The notes beneath the pieces are model-generated. The model ran no database searches, was not told where the DNA came from, and worked only from the letters and a program-made list of their open reading frames with translations. From a virus (Duplodnaviria > Heunggongvirae > Uroviricota > Caudoviricetes): DNA of 22,459 nt. Both the position numbers and the translations under genes were made by a program. The DNA lies in the IMG/VR virus record IMGVR_UViG_2531839473_000014; one strand, 5' to 3'. This document shows, piece after piece, positions 6,870 through 15,080 of the stretch. Each line of letters begins with the position of its first letter. The first letter of the stretch is position 1.

Positions 6870-7084
6870 GACTCCGCCTTTACAGGTAAACCATCACGAC
6901 CGAGGAAGACTTTAATCATGCAGTCAGTAATGCATGTTTTTGTAGTTAGGCTACGAATATAAAGTTTTCGCTTTTTAATATTGTTTGCCGAGGCAATATA
7001 TGTCCGGCCTTCATGAAGAACATAATCGCCAGGAGTCACGCACTGGCGTGGTATTTCATCGGTTCCGAAGTGATGAGCAATCAT
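6863..7084 (-). CDS. kilR: KilR-like cell-division inhibitor (Rac killing protein), 73 aa
   Basis: Translation [44 protein letters not shown]... matches KilR as recalled; position next to ydaE/racC. Confidence 0.8.
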
Positions 7085-7130
7085 AATTATCTCCTTAATA
7101 AATTTGTCGTATTAAGAAAATTCCAGAAAA

Positions 7131-7682
7131 CTATTTAATACTCAGCAACTGCTCGACGGTCATGTTTTTAATTGCGCTTCGGTTTACAAGAGTCCAGCCC
7201 TGTTTCTCCAGATAAAGGCGGAAAGTGTCTAGGGTACAGACGAGAGCGTCATCAGGAACGGTTTCAGTGAATTCGACGTTGCCGAATTTGTCGAAGCGAA
7301 CAACCAGAGTGCGCCCATCGCCCGGAATGATTTTGTTTGTGGGAGTGGTATTATTCTGGCGTAGTTCTGCTTCCATGCGGTCGAACTCAGCGATGTAGGC
7401 CTCTTTGAATGCAGCGGCTTTTTTGCCAGTGAAGCCCATCACCAGGAAAACGAAGCCGTTTTTGGTGATCTGGTAGGCATTATAGGAATTGCCGCGATGT
7501 TCGAATTTAACCCGCGAAAAGTTGCTGGTTAAAAAATATTCAGAGCATTCGAGGGATTCTATTTTTTGGACAACATGATGATGTTGCTTGCCAAAAAACT
7601 CTGCGATCGCAATGGATGTAGTTACAGCGCGACCGTTTTCGATGGTTACGTCAGGGTGAGAAAGGGTAGGGATAGTAGTCAT
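7131..7682 (-). CDS. Rha-family phage regulatory protein, about 184 aa from ATG at 7682
   Basis: From MTTIPTLSHPDVTIENGRAVTTSIAIAEFFGKQHHHVVQKIESL the sequence has the Rha-type N-terminal signature; GAGG SD before 7682. The ORF-track extension to 7979 crosses an intrinsic terminator and is not Rha-like, so it is excluded. Confidence 0.6.
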   Translation of the reverse strand: MTTIPTLSHPDVTIENGRAVTTSIAIAEFFGKQHHHVVQKIESLECSEYFLTSNFSRVKFEHRGNSYNAYQITKNGFVFLVMGFTGKKAAAFKEAYIAEFDRMEAELRQNNTTPTNKIIPGDGRTLVVRFDKFGNVEFTETVPDDALVCTLDTFRLYLEKQGWTLVNRSAIKNMTVEQLLSIK

Positions 7683-8880: not shown

Positions 8881-9069
8881 CTTATATCTCCCCTTAACGC
8901 CGGGTGGCGGAACTAAAACCTACAGCGCCGTGCTGCTTCTGCAATAATATTAGTTATATTCATATGAATGATCAACACAAATATGCATTTTGTTGATAAA
9001 AATGTACTATCGTAATGAAATTTTTAGTGTTTTTTTTGATAAAAAAGTAAGGTGAGGGAGCTGAGGGGA

Positions 9070-9095
9070 CAAAAAAACCGCCAAAAATGGCGGTT
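9070..9095 (-). terminator. Intrinsic terminator downstream of the repressor gene (stem AACCGCC/GGCGGTT, U-tract on the minus strand)
   Basis: Plus strand CAAAAAAACCGCCAAAAATGGCGGTTT; on the minus strand the hairpin is followed by TTTTTTTG; 20 bp after the stop of 9116..9580. Confidence 0.55.
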
Positions 9096-9115
9096 TAGTT
9101 ACGAGGTTACGGGAG

Positions 9116-9580
9116 CTATTTCTTCATGCGTTTCTGAGCTGCCAGCATCTTTTCAAACGCTTCTTTGTAGAGTTCATTTTGACCTTTAAGCCTTTCGATT
9201 AGTTTTGCTTTTTCTGATTCGGGAAGGATTTCAAAAAGATCCAGTAAATCAGCTTGTTGCTTGTTAACCATCCGCCAACCTTCGCCTTCGAAACTTTCGT
9301 CATAAGTTCCTGAGGAACGGACGTAATTCATCAGATCAGCTAAATCAGGCCTCAACTCTTCAGGCTTAACTCTTAGTAATACAGCGAATTTTAATGCTGC
9401 ATCAGTGTTTAGTGGAGCCTTTCCGTTGAGATAGTGGCTAACTGTGGATTGAGTCTCAAAGCCCATTAGCTCAGCAGCAAGCTCCTGAGTCAGTTTGAGC
9501 TCTCTTTTTTTGGCATCCCAGACTGCGCGCAGACGCTGCGTAGCTTCTGGCGATGCGATTTCTTCGCGTTTTCTTCTCAT
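9116..9580 (-). CDS. racR: Prophage repressor, XRE-type helix-turn-helix (RacR-like), 154 aa
   Basis: HTH segment LTQELAAELMGFETQSTVSHYLNGK; divergent from the ydaS/ydaT-like operon across a 104-bp AT-rich region. Symbol by context. Confidence 0.65.
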   Translation of the reverse strand: MRRKREEIASPEATQRLRAVWDAKKRELKLTQELAAELMGFETQSTVSHYLNGKAPLNTDAALKFAVLLRVKPEELRPDLADLMNYVRSSGTYDESFEGEGWRMVNKQQADLLDLFEILPESEKAKLIERLKGQNELYKEAFEKMLAAQKRMKK

Positions 9581-9684
9581 ACCACCATCTTATGAACACA
9601 ACTCATAAACTCAAACTGATATAGGTATTGATCATTTAAATTAATATAGTTAATATTTTGACAGGCATTACTAAGGTGACCCTT
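9581..9684. promoter_or_regulatory. Divergent promoter/operator region between repressor and ydaS-like gene
   Basis: AT-rich intergenic region with a TTGACA hexamer at 9658-9663 and tandem TTAATAT repeats; typical immunity-region layout. Operators not defined. Confidence 0.45.
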
Positions 9685-9960
9685 ATGACATTAGATGAAT
9701 ATTTGAAAAAAAATCGTGTACGACAGTCTTGTTTGGCCGTACTCGCTGGTTGTTCGCAATCGATGATTAGCCTCGTAGCTACTGGCCGTAGTCAGTTAAG
9801 CCCCGAAAAGGTATTGCGTATCGCGGAGGCTACGAATTTCGAGGTTACACCTCATGAACTTCGGCCTGATATCTACCCGAATCCGACCGATGGTTTACCT
9901 GTTGGATGTAAAGCTAACACACAAAATGCACAGGAGTTGATTCATGAAAATCAGGCATGA
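9685..9960 (+). CDS. ydaS: Cro/CI-type HTH protein (YdaS-like), 91 aa from ATG at 9685
   Basis: ORF-track start is TTG; the ATG at 9685 follows an AAGGTG SD. HTH segment SCLAVLAGCSQSMISLVATGRSQLS. Divergent from the repressor. Confidence 0.7.
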   Translation: MTLDEYLKKNRVRQSCLAVLAGCSQSMISLVATGRSQLSPEKVLRIAEATNFEVTPHELRPDIYPNPTDGLPVGCKANTQNAQELIHENQA

Positions 9961-10366
9961 GCACATTGAATCAGTGCTGTTAGCCCTGGCCGCTGAAAAA
10001 GGGCAGGCATGGGTAGCCAATGCAATTACTGAAGAATATCTGCGCCAGGGGGGCGGCGAATTGCCCCTGGTACCAGGCAAGGACTGGAACAATCAGCAGA
10101 ATATCTATCACCGTTGGTTGAAAGGTGAAACGAAAGCGCAAAGGGAAAAAATTCAGAAACTGATCCCTGCGGTTCTGGCAATTCTTCCGCGCGAGCTGCG
10201 TCACCGACTCTGCATCTTCGATACCCTGGAACGCCGTGCATTACTGGCGGCGCAGGAAGCGTTGAGTACGGCAATTGATGCGCATGATGATGCAGTCCAG
10301 GCCGTTTACCGGAAAGCACATTTCAGCGGCGGCGGTTCGTCCGGCGATTCTGTTGTTGTTCATTAA
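9944..10366 (+). CDS. ydaT: YdaT-like protein (toxic partner of YdaS in Rac), 140 aa
   Basis: Overlaps the ydaS end by 17 bp; AGGAG SD; size and position match ydaT as recalled. Confidence 0.7.
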   Translation: MKIRHEHIESVLLALAAEKGQAWVANAITEEYLRQGGGELPLVPGKDWNNQQNIYHRWLKGETKAQREKIQKLIPAVLAILPRELRHRLCIFDTLERRALLAAQEALSTAIDAHDDAVQAVYRKAHFSGGGSSGDSVVVH

Positions 10367-10385
10367 GTGAATAGGGTAACTAACA

Positions 10386-10799
10386 ATGAAAATCAAACCG
10401 TTTATCAATGCTGGAAATCTTACTCCCGGCGAACTACGAGACTGGATCCTGAAACTTGCAAAAAATGCAGAAATTGCGGGTTGGGGTACAGAAACTTCGG
10501 TTCGGAAGCTTCAGAGCGCAGAACTTAGCCTGCGTTCAGTTATGGACGATTTATCCCCAAGAATTAATTTTCTGGGGTCAGAGCAAATAATTCGTTCGGA
10601 AGATCACTCCAGCGAAGTTGCGGAAGTTCTGAATACTCTGAGGATAACTTTTGCTGCCGTTCGCGATATTCAACGAACCATTCTCTCATTGATTTCTCAG
10701 CTTCAAGAAATTGATAGTCGCATTCCTGATGGGGGTCATAGAGAGCGTCTTCCAGAATGTGAAGAGCAAGGACAGGGGAAACAGATAAGGGATCAGTAA
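10386..10799 (+). CDS. Hypothetical protein, 137 aa
   Basis: Co-directional, 20 bp after ydaT; hydrophilic helical-looking product. A 151-aa ORF runs antisense across it (10564..11019), so strand choice is not certain. Confidence 0.4.
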   Translation: MKIKPFINAGNLTPGELRDWILKLAKNAEIAGWGTETSVRKLQSAELSLRSVMDDLSPRINFLGSEQIIRSEDHSSEVAEVLNTLRITFAAVRDIQRTILSLISQLQEIDSRIPDGGHRERLPECEEQGQGKQIRDQ

Positions 10800-11098
10800 T
10801 ACGTTTTTCACTTGCCTGGTATAGCAATCTCGCCAGCGAATCATAGCTACTGGGGCTCAGGAGAGAATCCCGTGAGTGATTTGTAAGAATCAGGTGGAAG
10901 CGGGTGAGAACTATAGCCTTGCATGTTACCAGGTTAACCATGTCGTGGTCGTGCTGGTTAATTTTGTACACAGTGCGCATGTGATTTTTAATTTTTTGGC
11001 AAACAGCCATTAAAGACATGTCGAACCTCCTTTGGTTCTGTTGCTTGGGGAATCACAGATTATATCCGGAGGAAGGTTCGACACCAGATGAGGCAATT

Positions 11099-12223
11099 AT
11101 GGTTAAGGCTAAAAACATGCCAAATCCCATGCCAAAAACTAAGGCAAACAATGAGCCTTATCGCAAGGTAAAAATAACGATATGGGATGATCCCAAATTT
11201 AGGGCTTTATCTCCTCTGCCTCCAAGTGGACAGAGTTTGTTTATTTATCTGCTGACCAGTCCATTTACCGGGATTATTCCTGGGTTGTTTAAAGCCGGGC
11301 GGGCAGCAATGGCTGAAGAGTTGGGGTGGGATATCGAAGCCTTTGACTTAGCCTTAGGCGAAGCCATGAATCTTGGCATGGTGAAAGCAGATATCAAAGC
11401 CAGAGTTTTTTGGCTCCCGAATGCTGCGAAACACAATCCGCCAAACTCGATAAATGTCATTAAATCCTGGGCAAAGGCATTCGCTTTAATTCCTGATTGC
11501 CCTCTCAAATGGGAGGCCAGGGAATCGCTGAGAGCCGCGTCCTACGGGGTTTCTGAGGCTTTGGGGATGGCATTCGATAAGGCAATCCCTTTGCCTGAGG
11601 ATAAGCCTAAGGATAAGGCTAACGCTTTGTCATGCGGTATCCAGATAACAGATAACAGATATATAAACCCCACACATAACGCGCGCGTGCGCGAGAGTGC
11701 TCCGGCCAGTGAGGCAAATGGCGTGCCGTTGCAGACAGCGGAACCTGATTACCTGGAAGGCCTGAGCGAACCCATCGGGAAATTCCCGATGAGCGATAGC
11801 TGGTATCCGTCACGGGATTTTCGACGACGGGCTGCGTTGTGGGGGATGGCTCTTCCTGAGCCGGAATTTACACCTGCTGAACTTGCCGCCTTCCGGGACT
11901 ACTGGGCAGCGGAGGGGAAAGTTTTCACGCAGGTTCAGTGGGAGCAGAAATTCGCCCGTCACGTAAATCATGTCAGGGCGCAGGTTAAACCAGTCAGCAA
12001 GGGGGCAAACTATGCAGCAGCACCAGGTGGCACCGCATCACGGGCAGTTCAGGAAATTCGGGCAGCACGTGAGCAGTGGGAACGTGAAAACGGATTTATC
12101 AGCGACGGAAACGGCCTGGAAGCTGTGGGAACTCATGGGGGAGGTTTATTCGAACCGCTGGCCCCGGAAGAACGGGGCCGCACCTTCGAAGCTCTGGATT
12201 GCACAGATTGGCGCGATGACTGA
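11099..12223 (+). CDS. Phage replication initiation / replisome-organiser protein with DnaT-like C-terminal domain, 375 aa
   Basis: ATG at 11099 with GAGG SD. C-terminal segment GKFPMSDSWYPSRDFRRRAALWGMALPEPEFTPAELAAFRDYWAAEGKVFTQVQWEQKFAR aligns by eye to E. coli DnaT ([26 protein letters not shown]...[20 protein letters not shown], recalled). Followed by a P-like gene. Confidence 0.7.
   Translation: MVKAKNMPNPMPKTKANNEPYRKVKITIWDDPKFRALSPLPPSGQSLFIYLLTSPFTGIIPGLFKAGRAAMAEELGWDIEAFDLALGEAMNLGMVKADIKARVFWLPNAAKHNPPNSINVIKSWAKAFALIPDCPLKWEARESLRAASYGVSEALGMAFDKAIPLPEDKPKDKANALSCGIQITDNRYINPTHNARVRESAPASEANGVPLQTAEPDYLEGLSEPIGKFPMSDSWYPSRDFRRRAALWGMALPEPEFTPAELAAFRDYWAAEGKVFTQVQWEQKFARHVNHVRAQVKPVSKGANYAAAPGGTASRAVQEIRAAREQWERENGFISDGNGLEAVGTHGGGLFEPLAPEERGRTFEALDCTDWRDD
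11600..11665. repeat. Iteron-like direct repeats inside the replication gene (candidate origin)
   Basis: GATAAGCCTAA / GATAAGGCTAA tandem at 11600-11622 and AGATAACAGATAACAGATA at 11643-11661, followed by ATATATAAA; located in the linker between the two domains of the replication protein, as for lambda ori within O. Confidence 0.35.
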
Positions 12224-14315: not shown

Positions 14316-15074
14316 ATGAGGAACATAATGGCAGGTTTTTTAATATTCCTGTCTTCTGCTGCTTATGCTGATATCAATCTGTATGGTCCTGGTGGCCCGC
14401 ATACAGCCTTGCTTGATGCAGCCAAACTTTATGCCGAAAAAACAGGTATTATAGTGAACGTTCATTACGGCCCACAGAACAAATGGAATGAAGATGCCAA
14501 AAAAAATGCAGATATCTTGTTTGGCGCATCAGAACAATCTGCTCTGGCTATCATTCGGGACCATAAAGACAGCTTCAGTGAAAAAGATATTCAGCCTCTT
14601 TATCTGCGAAAAAGTATTTTATTGGTAAAGAAAGGTAATCCTAAAAATATCCGGAGTATTGACGACCTGACCAGACCCGGGATTGGCGTAATTGTTAATG
14701 ATGGTGGTGGTACCAGTAATACATCAGGCACTGGCGTCTGGGAAGATATTGCCGGACGTAAAGGGAATATAGAAACTGTCGCCGCAATCCGAAAAAATAT
14801 TATTTTATATGCGCCCAACAGCGGAACTGCACGTAAGGCTCTTGAGAATCAGCCTGAAGCAGATGTCTGGATAACCTGGGCTGACTGGGCAGCCAGTAAT
14901 CCAGAAATTGGTGATGTCGTGGAAATAGCGCCAGACTACGTGATATGGCGTGATATGAACATTACAGTACGTCAGGATGCAAATGATGAAACCCGTCGAT
15001 TTGCAGAATGGCTACAAACCGATGAAGCGGCGCCTGCATTCAAAAAATATGGCTGGACCAGGAAAGGCACTTGA
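14316..15074 (+). CDS. Periplasmic substrate-binding protein, ModA/TupA-like type 2 fold, 252 aa, orphan (no transporter partners)
   Basis: AAAAGGAG SD; Sec signal peptide MRNIMAGFLIFLSSAAYA then DINLY; overall layout and C-terminal FKKYGWT resemble ModA (FKRYGFT, recalled). AT-rich compared with the flanking phage genes. Confidence 0.75.
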   Translation: MRNIMAGFLIFLSSAAYADINLYGPGGPHTALLDAAKLYAEKTGIIVNVHYGPQNKWNEDAKKNADILFGASEQSALAIIRDHKDSFSEKDIQPLYLRKSILLVKKGNPKNIRSIDDLTRPGIGVIVNDGGGTSNTSGTGVWEDIAGRKGNIETVAAIRKNIILYAPNSGTARKALENQPEADVWITWADWAASNPEIGDVVEIAPDYVIWRDMNITVRQDANDETRRFAEWLQTDEAAPAFKKYGWTRKGT

Positions 15075-15080
15075 CATCCT

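What the first reader, a model, noticed from the sequence alone, without database searches (positions are those of the whole stretch)
10386..11098. Unassigned region after ydaT: a 137-aa ORF with a full-length antisense ORF and a 300-bp intergenic stretch
The 137-aa plus-strand ORF and a 151-aa minus-strand ORF (10564..11019) both translate to protein-like sequence. The region 10800-11098 upstream of the replication gene is non-coding on the plus strand and contains a GGTTAACC palindrome. This is a typical accessory slot between immunity and replication modules.
Basis: seen in the sequence. Interest (0 to 1): 0.4.

Follow-up and report, generated by a model that had tools for sequence, protein, structure and literature searches.

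The report
Two overlapping convergent prophage genes
Both reading frames flagged here are real, conserved genes that run towards each other and share 236 bases of DNA, forming a two-gene cassette in a swap-in accessory slot of E. coli-type prophages that genome annotation pipelines routinely report only half of.

Summary
Both ORFs exist at the stated coordinates: A (10386-10799, +, 137 aa) and B (10564-11019, -, 151 aa). They overlap by 236 nt at their 3' ends, so neither is a full-length antisense of the other.

Both are genuine genes. B has gapless 151-aa homologues down to 28% identity. Every lineage but one also keeps an A homologue on the opposite strand, in the same phase, overlapping by 158-272 nt. 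A's first 59 residues lie outside B and are conserved only in A's frame. Stop codons in A's phase are depleted only in the overlap: 1 observed against 25 expected.

The supposed 300-bp intergenic stretch is the first half of B plus a conserved ~70-nt leader. The leader holds a strong Shine-Dalgarno site, a promoter-like element and an inverted repeat.

In other prophages the same leader precedes unrelated cargo genes. These include the PD-Lambda-6 defence gene and ECs1072 of CP-933P, a remote B relative with its own overlapping partner.

My best reading, which is inferred, is a cognate pair. B would be a leftward accessory or defence-type gene expressed in lysogens. A would be its partner inside the rightward early lytic operon, with convergent transcription making the two mutually exclusive. 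Function is untested.

The parts
10386..10799 (+). Gene A, 137 aa. It is co-directional with the early rightward operon (ydaS/cro - ydaT - A - replication genes). The predicted core is three helices (residues 14-112) followed by a variable, disordered tail (113-137).
   Evidence: ORF. PGAP calls it WP_000695003.1, hypothetical. It matches phrog_37051 over its full length. Homologues are read from DNA in 12+ diverged lineages. Its N-terminal 59 aa are conserved only in this frame. dN/dS is 0.23-0.69 in frame against about 1-3 out of frame. AF2 gives pLDDT 70 with the tail below 50. Tail identity is 19% against 38-67% for the core.
10564..11019 (-). Gene B, 151 aa, all-helical, transcribed leftward and antisense to the early operon. 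It carries an invariant C-terminal motif LPELxWxDLPxELF. It is a remote relative of the ECs1072 family.
   Evidence: ORF. It is not annotated in RefSeq E. coli. Gapless 151-aa homologues reach 48% identity, and a profile search finds 23 cluster representatives among 1.84e9 proteins. hhalign against ECs1072/C1 gives 86.7% probability. Distant members hit NF033230 below threshold. AF2 gives pLDDT 63.
10564..10799 (.). The 236-nt region that codes on both strands. A codon position 1 coincides with B codon position 1. A residues 60-137 lie opposite B residues 74-151.
   Evidence: The same phase and a 158-272 nt overlap are seen in all B-family lineages, and 269-323 nt in the paralogous C1 family. 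Stops in A's phase over B's last 53 codons number 1 against 25.3 expected, while the other antisense phases have 69 and 40. B's first 70 codons show 77 against 79.2 expected. Variable sites are spread evenly over the three phases, 13/15/15.
10585..10626 (-). Codons for B's C-terminal motif (residues 132-145, LPQLRWSDLPNELF). They lie opposite A residues 67-81 (QIIRSEDHSSEVAEV). This is the most conserved segment of both proteins.
   Evidence: L132, W137, D139 and P141 are invariant across 24 family members. Segment identities are 75% for B 130-151 and 67% for A 60-81.
11020..11087 (-). Conserved leader immediately upstream of B's ATG. It is the module's left boundary, and sequence beyond it is unrelated between phages. 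Other prophages use the same leader for unrelated leftward cargo genes.
   Evidence: Alignments. 119 IMG/VR loci carry the leader, with cargo falling into 5 or more families. The L002 variant has the same leader in front of an 83-aa gene. No Rfam family matches it.
11026..11033 (-). Shine-Dalgarno site of B: AAAGGAGG, then a 6-nt spacer (TTCGAC), then ATG at 11019-11017.
   Evidence: Read directly from the sequence. It is invariant or nearly invariant in all lineages.
11019..11083 (.). Perfect 10-nt inverted repeat: TGTCGAACCT (11019-11028) and AGGTTCGACA (11074-11083). As RNA it pairs an anti-SD arm with B's SD and AUG. It can form on either strand's transcript.
   Evidence: the repeat finder I3. 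Minus-strand fold is -29.1 kcal/mol, z -3.5. Plus-strand fold is -31.6 kcal/mol, z -3.1. The helix is 88% paired in 16 lineages, but only 2 of its 16 pairs show changes on both sides.
11059..11087 (-). Promoter candidate P-b, inside the conserved block: -35 CTGGTG (11087-11082), a 17-nt spacer, and -10 TATAAT (11064-11059). Other lineages keep the same positions (TTGGTG-N17-TATxxT).
   Evidence: Read from the alignments. The -35 is weak and the -10 degenerates in some lineages (GxTAGC). The consensus scan did not report it. This is inference.
11096..11123 (-). Promoter candidate P-a, just outside the conserved block: TTGGCA, 16 nt, CATAAT (10 of 12). Its transcript would start at about 11089 and would place the whole leader, anti-SD arm included, in B's 5' UTR.
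   Evidence: Consensus scan. It is not conserved in other lineages.
9944..10366 (+). Context: ydaT (CII-equivalent), the gene upstream of A in the rightward operon.
   Evidence: Pfam PF06254, PGAP, PMC9986795.
11099..12223 (+). Context: the replication-initiation gene (DnaT-domain, YdaU/O-like), next in the rightward operon. Rightward transcripts must cross all of B in antisense to reach it.
   Evidence: Pfam PF17948. GAGG-N5-ATG sits at 11099. Other gene callers start it here. PGAP starts it at 11309.

Best explanation
The region holds a cognate two-gene cassette, not one gene plus a spurious shadow ORF.

Gene A (rightward) belongs to the early lytic operon cro/ydaS - ydaT - A - replication genes. 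Gene B (leftward) has its own conserved leader, with a strong ribosome-binding site and a promoter-like element, and is embedded antisense in that operon. The two converge and share 236 nt of dual-coding DNA.

Shown here:
- Both proteins are under purifying selection.
- The overlap and its phase are conserved across the whole family and in a paralogous family (ECs1072 of CP-933P plus an unannotated partner).
- A and B always travel together.
- The leader is a portable unit that precedes alternative cargo genes in the same slot, one of which is the PD-Lambda-6 defence gene.

Inferred:
- B is made in the lysogen, when the rightward promoter is repressed, and acts as an accessory function of the defence or exclusion type.
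- On induction or infection, rightward transcription must read through the whole of B. It therefore shuts B down by transcriptional interference and antisense pairing, and at the same time produces A.
- A is the cognate partner that neutralises or modulates B, so the phage's own lytic growth is not harmed.
- The leader's inverted repeat can sequester B's ribosome-binding site and would keep B translation low or conditional.
For: Both genes are real:
- B homologues are gapless and 151 aa long.
- A homologues are present in the same phase in every B lineage except L008.
- A's non-overlapping N-terminus is conserved only in its own frame, E 1e-10 to 1e-20.
- A-phase stops are depleted only in the overlap: 1 against 25.3 expected, versus 77 against 79.2 in B's first half (searches show the same).
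- dN/dS is below 1 in frame.

Cognate pairing: B with A in 26 of 26 loci, C1 with an A-like partner in 37 of 37. B resembles C1 and A resembles the C1 partner by hhalign, while the crossed controls fail.

Slot and leader.

Defence association: one cargo is PD-Lambda-6, E 7e-89 over its full length.

Operon position is constant across phage types: cI | cro(-ydaT) - A - (B) - replication genes.

Lysogen expression of the paralogue: ECs1072 appears in a Sakai microarray list from uninduced cultures.

The SD site and hairpin.
Against: - There are no expression or phenotype data for A or B.
- Neither protein matches any Pfam, NCBIfam or PADLOC model above threshold.
- Neither has a solved or informative structural relative.
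- The defence link rests on one validated cargo in the shared slot. Another cargo is BssS-like, so the slot is not defence-only.
- The promoter is unproven. The conserved candidate has a poor -35 and degenerates in some lineages, and the better consensus site lies outside the conserved block.
- No intrinsic terminator was found for either gene.
- Hairpin covariation is thin.
- An A-B protein interaction was not testable.
- The lineages in the stop-codon test are not fully independent.
- L008 keeps B without A's N-terminus.
Confidence: 0.55

Rival explanations
1. Both genes are real, but the cassette regulates the phage's own development and is not a defence or exclusion function. Leftward transcription from the leader would act like lambda's oop or P_RE transcripts, damping the early operon (A, ydaT, cro) in antisense. 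B and/or A would then tune replication or the lysis-lysogeny decision.
For: The cassette sits exactly at the cII-equivalent/replication junction, where lambda has the leftward oop unit (established knowledge). No terminator lies between B and the repressor gene on the minus strand until 9096-9075. The cassette occurs only in temperate-phage early operons. A and B have no similarity to known defence proteins.
Against: The slot is dispensable and its content varies. K-12 Rac-type and many other prophages carry other cargo or none. The cargo includes a validated defence gene and a BssS-like gene, which fits morons better than core regulators. The YdaT-dependent P_RE equivalent lies elsewhere, at 9937-9954.
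Confidence: 0.22
2. The pair is an addiction-type toxin-antitoxin module that stabilises the prophage. B would be a toxin whose translation is held down by the leader hairpin. A, or the rightward antisense RNA, would be the antidote.
For: Pairing is strictly cognate. The convergent 3'-overlapping layout resembles type I systems such as txpA/RatA and bsrG/SR4 on B. subtilis prophages (established knowledge). The SD site is sequestered in a leader hairpin, as in many type I toxin mRNAs.
Against: B is a 151-aa soluble helical protein (GRAVY -0.43), not a small membrane peptide. A would be made only when the lytic operon is on, which is the wrong timing for an antidote needed in every lysogenic cell. 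There is no similarity to any toxin or antitoxin family.
Confidence: 0.13
3. Only B is a functional gene. The A reading frame stays open as a passive by-product of B's sequence, or is a decaying remnant.
For: Given B's amino-acid sequence, the chance that the A phase is open over the overlap is not tiny in any single lineage (0.06-0.27). A's last 25 residues are unconstrained (19% identity). In L008 the A phase stays open although A's N-terminus is replaced. The first database search found only close A homologues.
Against: A's first 59 codons lie outside B and are conserved as protein, ungapped and in one frame only, in 7 of 8 diverged lineages. The same holds in lineages where B is only 28-31% identical. 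Pooled stop depletion is 1 against 25.3. A is predicted to fold as a helical hairpin that joins non-overlapping and overlapping parts, with pLDDT about 90 for residues 41-110. A-like partners accompany the paralogous C1 family.
Confidence: 0.05
4. Only A is real, as in the RefSeq annotation, and the 151-aa minus ORF is a chance antisense ORF.
For: PGAP annotates only A in the E. coli genomes that carry this region.
Against: B has a perfect SD site. It has a family of gapless homologues down to 28% identity with invariant motifs. Its first 73 codons lie outside A. It is annotated in Salmonella and Serratia records. It is related to the curated NF033230 family.
Confidence: 0.02

Closest known systems
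ECs1072 family phage-associated protein (NCBIfam NF033230), the gene after ydaT in prophage CP-933P/Sp of E. coli O157:H7
   Same: It has the same length (151 aa), the same slot after ydaT, the same leftward orientation and the same conserved leader. It has a C-terminal LPPCxExEWD motif at the position of B's LPELxWxDLP. It also has a convergent partner ORF in the same phase whose N-terminus resembles A's. Profile similarity is 86.7%.
   Different: B does not reach the NF033230 threshold: the window protein has no hit, and distant B members score 16-22 bits against a cutoff of 70. Sequence identity is about 14%. The ECs1072 partner is longer (169 aa) and overlaps by 317 nt. ECs1072 itself has no known function, and its partner is unannotated.
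P22/lambda sieB with esc and the sas antisense RNA (Ranade and Poteete 1993; recalled from memory, not re-read here)
   Same: A lysogen-expressed exclusion gene lies antisense inside an early lytic operon. The phage's own early transcription supplies the antisense RNA and an antidote that protects it from its own system.
   Different: There is no sequence relation. The sieB antidote (Esc) is an in-frame truncation of SieB itself, not a separate protein encoded on the opposite strand. The resemblance is one of mechanism only.
Lambda oop antisense RNA at the cII-O junction
   Same: It is a leftward transcription unit at the junction between the cII-type gene and the replication genes, and it overlaps the 3' end of the upstream rightward gene.
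   Different: oop is a 77-nt non-coding RNA overlapping cII by about 55 nt. Here the leftward unit encodes a conserved 151-aa protein, and the overlap is protein-coding on both strands.
PD-Lambda-6 (PADLOC PDLC04020; series described by Vassallo et al. 2022, PMC9519451)
   Same: It occupies the same slot under the same leader in a related prophage (L170), with a small convergent ORF facing it.
   Different: It is an unrelated protein (131 aa, with a hydrophobic N-terminus). A and B have no PADLOC hit.
Convergent 3'-overlapping type I toxin-antitoxin loci on prophages (txpA/RatA, bsrG/SR4)
   Same: They are convergent transcripts overlapping at their 3' ends, carried on prophages, with toxin mRNA leaders that hide the ribosome-binding site.
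   Different: In those systems the antitoxin is a non-coding RNA and the toxin a small hydrophobic peptide. Here both strands encode conserved soluble proteins of 137 and 151 aa.
Experimentally studied antiparallel overlapping genes of EHEC (laoB, ano, asa; PMC5810103, PMC5960689, PMC6294744)
   Same: They are non-trivial antiparallel overlaps that annotation pipelines suppress.
   Different: Those are young, short ORFs embedded in older genes and have narrow taxonomic range. Here both partners are old, and the overlap is conserved down to 28% identity and across two paralogous families.

Membership tests
ECs1072 family phage-associated protein (NF033230) | Whole-protein score at or above the curated cutoff (70 bits) against NF033230 | tested here: not met
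   Window B has no hit at E up to 10. Distant B-family members score 21.7 and 15.9 bits. The C1 control scores 104.6 bits.
ECs1072 family phage-associated protein (NF033230) | Remote homology by profile-profile comparison, with collinear alignment | tested here: met
   hhalign of the B family against the C1 family gives 86.7% probability, E 4e-6, residues 27-99 against 29-103. Crossed controls give 0.1-0.4%.
ECs1072 family phage-associated protein (NF033230) | Same genomic slot, orientation and leader | tested here: met
phrog_37051 (for A) | Full-length profile match | tested here: met
   E 5e-94 over 1-137 of 137. The family has no known function and is built from gene calls of near-identical phages.
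Genuine antiparallel overlapping (dual-coding) gene pair | Each ORF is conserved as protein in parts that do not overlap the other | tested here: met
   A 1-59 and B 1-73.
Genuine antiparallel overlapping (dual-coding) gene pair | The second frame stays open in the overlap beyond what the first protein's sequence predicts, across diverged lineages | tested here: met
   1 stop observed against 25.3 expected in 19 lineages. The control region shows 77 against 79.2, and the other phases have 69 and 40.
Genuine antiparallel overlapping (dual-coding) gene pair | Both products are translated | not testable with these tools
   Needs ribosome profiling, tagging or mass spectrometry.
Known anti-phage defence systems (PADLOC-DB 2.0) | Significant match of A or B to a defence-system model | tested here: not met
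   B has no hit. A's best hit is JetD at E 0.025 and 11.6 bits, which is noise.
Moron (autonomous insert in a phage operon: own promoter, gene, terminator) | Own promoter upstream of the inserted gene | tested here: inconclusive
   There are two sigma-70-like candidates. Neither is proven.
Moron (autonomous insert in a phage operon: own promoter, gene, terminator) | Intrinsic terminator after the inserted gene | tested here: not met
   No terminator-like site lies downstream of B on the minus strand before 9096-9075.
Type II toxin-antitoxin system | Co-directional bicistronic operon with recognisable toxin or antitoxin folds | tested here: not met
   The genes are convergent, and there are no Pfam or NCBIfam toxin or antitoxin hits.
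Type I toxin-antitoxin system | Small hydrophobic toxin peptide plus a non-coding antisense RNA | tested here: not met
   B is 151 aa with GRAVY -0.43. The antisense strand encodes a conserved protein. Only the convergent 3' overlap and the SD-sequestering leader resemble type I.

The most novel reading that the evidence does not exclude
A and B, together with ECs1072 and its unannotated partner, could define a new class of prophage cassette. A lysogen-expressed abortive-infection or exclusion effector and its lytic-operon-encoded antidote would be written on opposite strands of the same DNA. The two would then be inherited inseparably and expressed in a mutually exclusive way. The whole cassette would be plugged into a previously unrecognised lambdoid-prophage hotspot, defined by a portable ~70-nt leader that drives interchangeable defence cargo.
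Probability: 0.25. Interest if true: 0.8.

Novelty: new variant of a known kind. Interest (0 to 1): 0.62.

Why it matters
First, long antiparallel gene overlaps in bacteria and phages are usually dismissed as artefacts, and few are established. Here comparative evidence alone shows that both partners and the overlap itself are conserved, down to 28% protein identity and across two paralogous families. This makes a clean test case for how dual-coding DNA evolves.

Second, annotation pipelines systematically drop one member. PGAP keeps A and drops B in this prophage. It keeps ECs1072 and drops its partner in about 455 E. coli genomes, including O157:H7. Half of a two-gene system is therefore invisible in public databases.

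Third, the shared leader marks an accessory hotspot at the cro/cII-replication junction of enterobacterial temperate phages. It already contains one validated defence gene and several uncharacterised cargo-partner pairs. That gives a short, concrete list of candidates for defence or self-immunity experiments, in a prophage (CP-933P) whose immunity region is already under study.

Tried and rejected
- Pfam, NCBIfam, PADLOC and PHROGs scans of A and B gave nothing informative beyond phrog_37051, which has unknown function.
- Foldseek of the AF2 models against the PDB gave only noise for B and generic helical hairpins for A, such as CorA, prefoldin and UvsY, all at E above 0.2.
- Profile searches against PDB sequences found nothing.
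- An Rfam scan of 9000-11600 on both strands found no family for the leader.
It was redone with database proteins found by a profile search.
- A YdaT operator as regulator of B was rejected. The only good site (1 mismatch) is at 9937-9954, the published position. The 2-mismatch sites at 10689 and 10876 are within chance expectation, 27 matches against 19.4 expected.
- GGTTAACC as a signal was rejected, because it is at chance level and inside conserved codons.
- The LexA box was considered by eye in the leader. CTGT...ACAG is there, but the spacing is 13 rather than 8, so it was rejected.
- The clamp-binding or SSB-tail mimicry idea for B's C-terminal motif was recalled from memory only and not tested, so it is not claimed.
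- A genome-contig scan yielded only one extra locus.
- A first Monte Carlo version of the stop-codon test timed out and was replaced by an exact calculation.

Full report
SETTING. The window is a Rac/CP-933P-like lambdoid prophage of E. coli, 99.9% identical to strain RM9088. Around the finding the genes run as follows: a cI-like HTH repressor (9116-9580, -), ydaS/cro (9658-9960, +), ydaT (9944-10366, +; PF06254), the region in question, and then a DnaT-domain replication gene and a lambda-P-like gene. YdaS and YdaT are the Cro and CII equivalents of such phages (PMC8630535, PMC9986795).

THE OBSERVATION. I call the plus ORF A (10386-10799, 137 aa) and the minus ORF B (10564-11019, 151 aa). 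They converge and share 236 nt (10564-10799). Neither is a full-length antisense of the other. Codon position 1 of A coincides with position 1 of B. B's ATG is preceded by AAAGGAGG and a 6-nt spacer. The GGTTAACC palindrome (10932-10939) is at chance level and sits in conserved B codons.

WHICH ORF IS REAL? BOTH.
- A first protein search seemed to favour B. B has gapless 151-aa homologues down to 48% identity in Salmonella, Serratia and metagenomes, while A has only homologues of at least 86% identity.
- That asymmetry comes from gene calling. PGAP annotates A and omits B in E. coli. Other pipelines annotate B and omit A. Only one phage record and one Logan contig carry both.
- Reading the DNA of the diverged loci shows an A homologue on the opposite strand of every B gene. 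It is in the same phase, is 110-147 aa long and overlaps B by 158-239 nt. The one exception is L008.
- The same holds for B relatives of only 28-31% identity, where the overlap is 194-272 nt.
- A's first 59 residues lie outside B. They are conserved at 39-50% identity, ungapped, E 1e-10 to 1e-20, in A's frame only. The other five frames give nothing comparable.
- Among close relatives, dN/dS in that segment is 0.23-0.69 in frame and about 1-3 out of frame. In the overlap, variable sites fall evenly on the three phases (13/15/15), so no single wobble position exists.
- I calculated the expected number of stops in A's phase from B's amino-acid sequence and local codon usage. Over 19 lineages (B, distant B and the paralogous C1 family), B's last 53 codons contain 1 stop against 25.3 expected. 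The other two antisense phases contain 69 and 40. B's first 70 codons contain 77 against 79.2 expected.
- The lineages are not fully independent, so the Poisson value (about 3e-10) is only indicative. The contrast between regions and between phases does not depend on it.

ANATOMY OF THE TWO PROTEINS.
- A is predicted as three helices (14-30, 35-69, 72-112). Confidence is high for roughly residues 41-110. The tail (116-137) is disordered.
- The tail is also unconserved, at 19% identity, and varies in length. It lies opposite a well-conserved B helix (B 74-98, 61%). In that stretch B dictates the sequence and A merely reads on.
- The functional dual-coding core is A 60-112 opposite B 99-151.
- B is all-helical but modelled poorly, with pLDDT 63.
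- B's hallmark is the C-terminal LPELxWxDLPxELF motif, with four invariant residues in 24 members.
- The B family is small: 23 cluster representatives in 1.84e9 proteins.
- No Pfam, NCBIfam, PADLOC, PDB-sequence or fold match is informative for either protein.

THE 'INTERGENIC' STRETCH.
- Bases 10800-11019 are B codons 1-73.
- Bases 11020-11087 are a leader conserved in all lineages. It is more conserved than the proteins themselves. Conservation ends abruptly at TGGTG.
- The leader contains the SD site. It also contains a promoter-like element that keeps its position, (C/T)TGGTG-N17-TATAAT-like; in this window that is CTGGTG and a perfect TATAAT.
- It contains a perfect 10-nt inverted repeat (11019-11028 and 11074-11083) that pairs an anti-SD arm with the SD and AUG.
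- Pairing is kept in 88% of cells, but only 2 of the helix's 16 pairs show changes on both sides. The hairpin is therefore plausible but not proven, and it folds equally well on the plus-strand transcript.
- A second promoter-like site, with a better consensus (TTGGCA-16-CATAAT, 11123-11096), lies just outside the block. It would put the whole leader into B's 5' UTR. I could not decide between the two.
- No Rfam family matches the leader.
- No intrinsic terminator follows either gene. Rightward transcripts must therefore traverse all of B in antisense to reach the replication genes.

THE SLOT.
- A variant prophage (L002) has the same ydaT, leader and replication gene. Between them it carries a different convergent pair: a 98-aa gene on the plus strand and an 83-aa gene on the minus strand that starts at the same leader ATG.
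- Searching IMG/VR for the leader gave 119 loci. The gene that starts at the leader ATG falls into several families:
  - C1, 151-152 aa, 40 loci;
  - B, 28 loci;
  - a 97-aa family, 23 loci;
  - the 83-aa family, 17 loci;
  - a BssS-like 83-aa family (PF13991), 4 loci;
  - singletons, one of which is PD-Lambda-6 (PADLOC PDLC04020, E 7e-89 over its full length).
- C1 is the curated 'ECs1072 family phage-associated protein' (NF033230). It sits after ydaT in CP-933P of O157:H7 and is present in 455 of 5426 complete E. coli genomes.
- C1 also has an unannotated convergent partner of 169 aa. The partner is in the same phase and overlaps by 269-323 nt even between members only 30-40% identical. Its N-terminus (PHIWRGGLSDVELAEWL) resembles A's (KPFINAGNLTPGELRDWIL).
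- Profile comparison links B to C1 (86.7%) and A to the C1 partner (73%), while the crossed controls fail.
- Cargo and partner are strictly cognate. B goes with A in 26 of 26 loci and C1 with its partner in 37 of 37. Three small cargo families share a 'RIARNVAWYA' partner family.
- The operon position is constant in lambdoid phages with quite different replication modules and in a Cox-type phage: repressor | cro(-cII) - partner - (cargo, antisense) - replication genes.

HOW IT MOST LIKELY WORKS.
- Shown: this is a cognate, convergent, partly dual-coding gene pair. One member lies in the early lytic operon. The other lies behind a portable leader, in a slot that elsewhere holds a known defence gene.
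- Inferred, step 1: in the lysogen the rightward promoter is repressed and B is expressed from the leader. The paralogue ECs1072 is detectable on arrays of uninduced Sakai cultures (PMC2241611).
- Inferred, step 2: on induction or infection, rightward transcription crosses B. It silences B by collision and antisense pairing, and it produces A.
- Inferred, step 3: A counteracts B.
- Inferred, step 4: the leader hairpin limits B translation.
- This resembles P22 sieB/esc/sas and lambda oop in logic only. Both comparisons are recalled from memory.
- The rivals are a developmental regulator, an addiction module, or one of the two ORFs being spurious. The last is contradicted by the comparative data.

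VERDICT. The interpretation as an accessory slot is right. The open question of which ORF is real is answered with 'both'. What is new is a deeply conserved antiparallel gene overlap, systematically half-annotated, in a leader-defined prophage hotspot. Its function remains to be tested.

Noticed in passing
window 11018-11309: The start of the replication (DnaT-domain) gene is inconsistent between annotations. PGAP starts it at 11309 (305 aa). Other callers start it at 11099 (374-375 aa), where GAGG-N5-ATG is present. The ORF is open from 11018. The PGAP choice creates an apparent 510-bp gap that hides gene B.
   Followed up: partly
window 9937-9954: TTGATTCATGAAAATCAG differs by one mismatch from the published YdaT operator OM (TTGATTN6AATCAA). 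It sits at the ydaS/ydaT junction, as in CP-933P, which suggests the P_RE-type control described for CP-933P applies to this prophage too.
   Followed up: partly
L178 2545-3286 (E. coli O157:H7 CP-933P region); L109 and relatives: The curated ECs1072 family gene has an unannotated 169-aa convergent partner ORF overlapping it by 317 nt. The partner is conserved in members only 30-40% identical. This means a second, more widespread dual-coding pair, present in 455 of 5426 E. coli genomes.
   Followed up: partly
L170 (IMG/VR), cargo at oriented 6950-7345: The PD-Lambda-6 defence gene sits under the same leader after ydaT. An 82-aa hydrophobic ORF converges on it with a 4-nt gap. This may be a partner that the one-gene definition of the system misses.
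   Followed up: no
L059 and 22 similar IMG/VR loci: A 97-aa cargo family under the leader has a 117-aa antisense ORF covering 273 of its 294 nt. I did not evaluate whether that ORF is conserved for its own sake or is spurious.
   Followed up: no
L008 1505-2492 (Trabulsiella guamensis): B is intact. A's N-terminal part is replaced by unrelated sequence, giving a 254-aa ORF that still reads through the overlap in A's phase.
   Followed up: no
L177 (GenBank PP818812, 'Actinobacillus phage vB_Apl-pPE4'): This deposited phage genome is about 97% identical at protein level to this E. coli Rac-like prophage region and annotates both overlapping ORFs (gp12, gp13). The Actinobacillus host label looks doubtful.
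   Followed up: no
window 10555-10576: The imperfect palindrome CCCCAAGAATTAATTTTCTGGGG is centred on B's stop codon and on A's most conserved residues (R59, I60). It could be a 3'-end hairpin for either transcript. No T-run follows it on either strand.
   Followed up: no
P0042 (distant A homologue, Escherichia marmotae): A UniRef cluster name calls this protein 'Chemotaxis protein CheZ'. Pfam gives no CheZ match, so the name is probably a mis-transfer prompted by the long helical hairpin.
   Followed up: partly
window about 14318-15076 (from L001 annotation): The prophage carries paa (an AcfC-family adhesin) and a frameshifted fimbrial gene downstream of the replication module. These are virulence-type cargo unrelated to this finding.
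   Followed up: no
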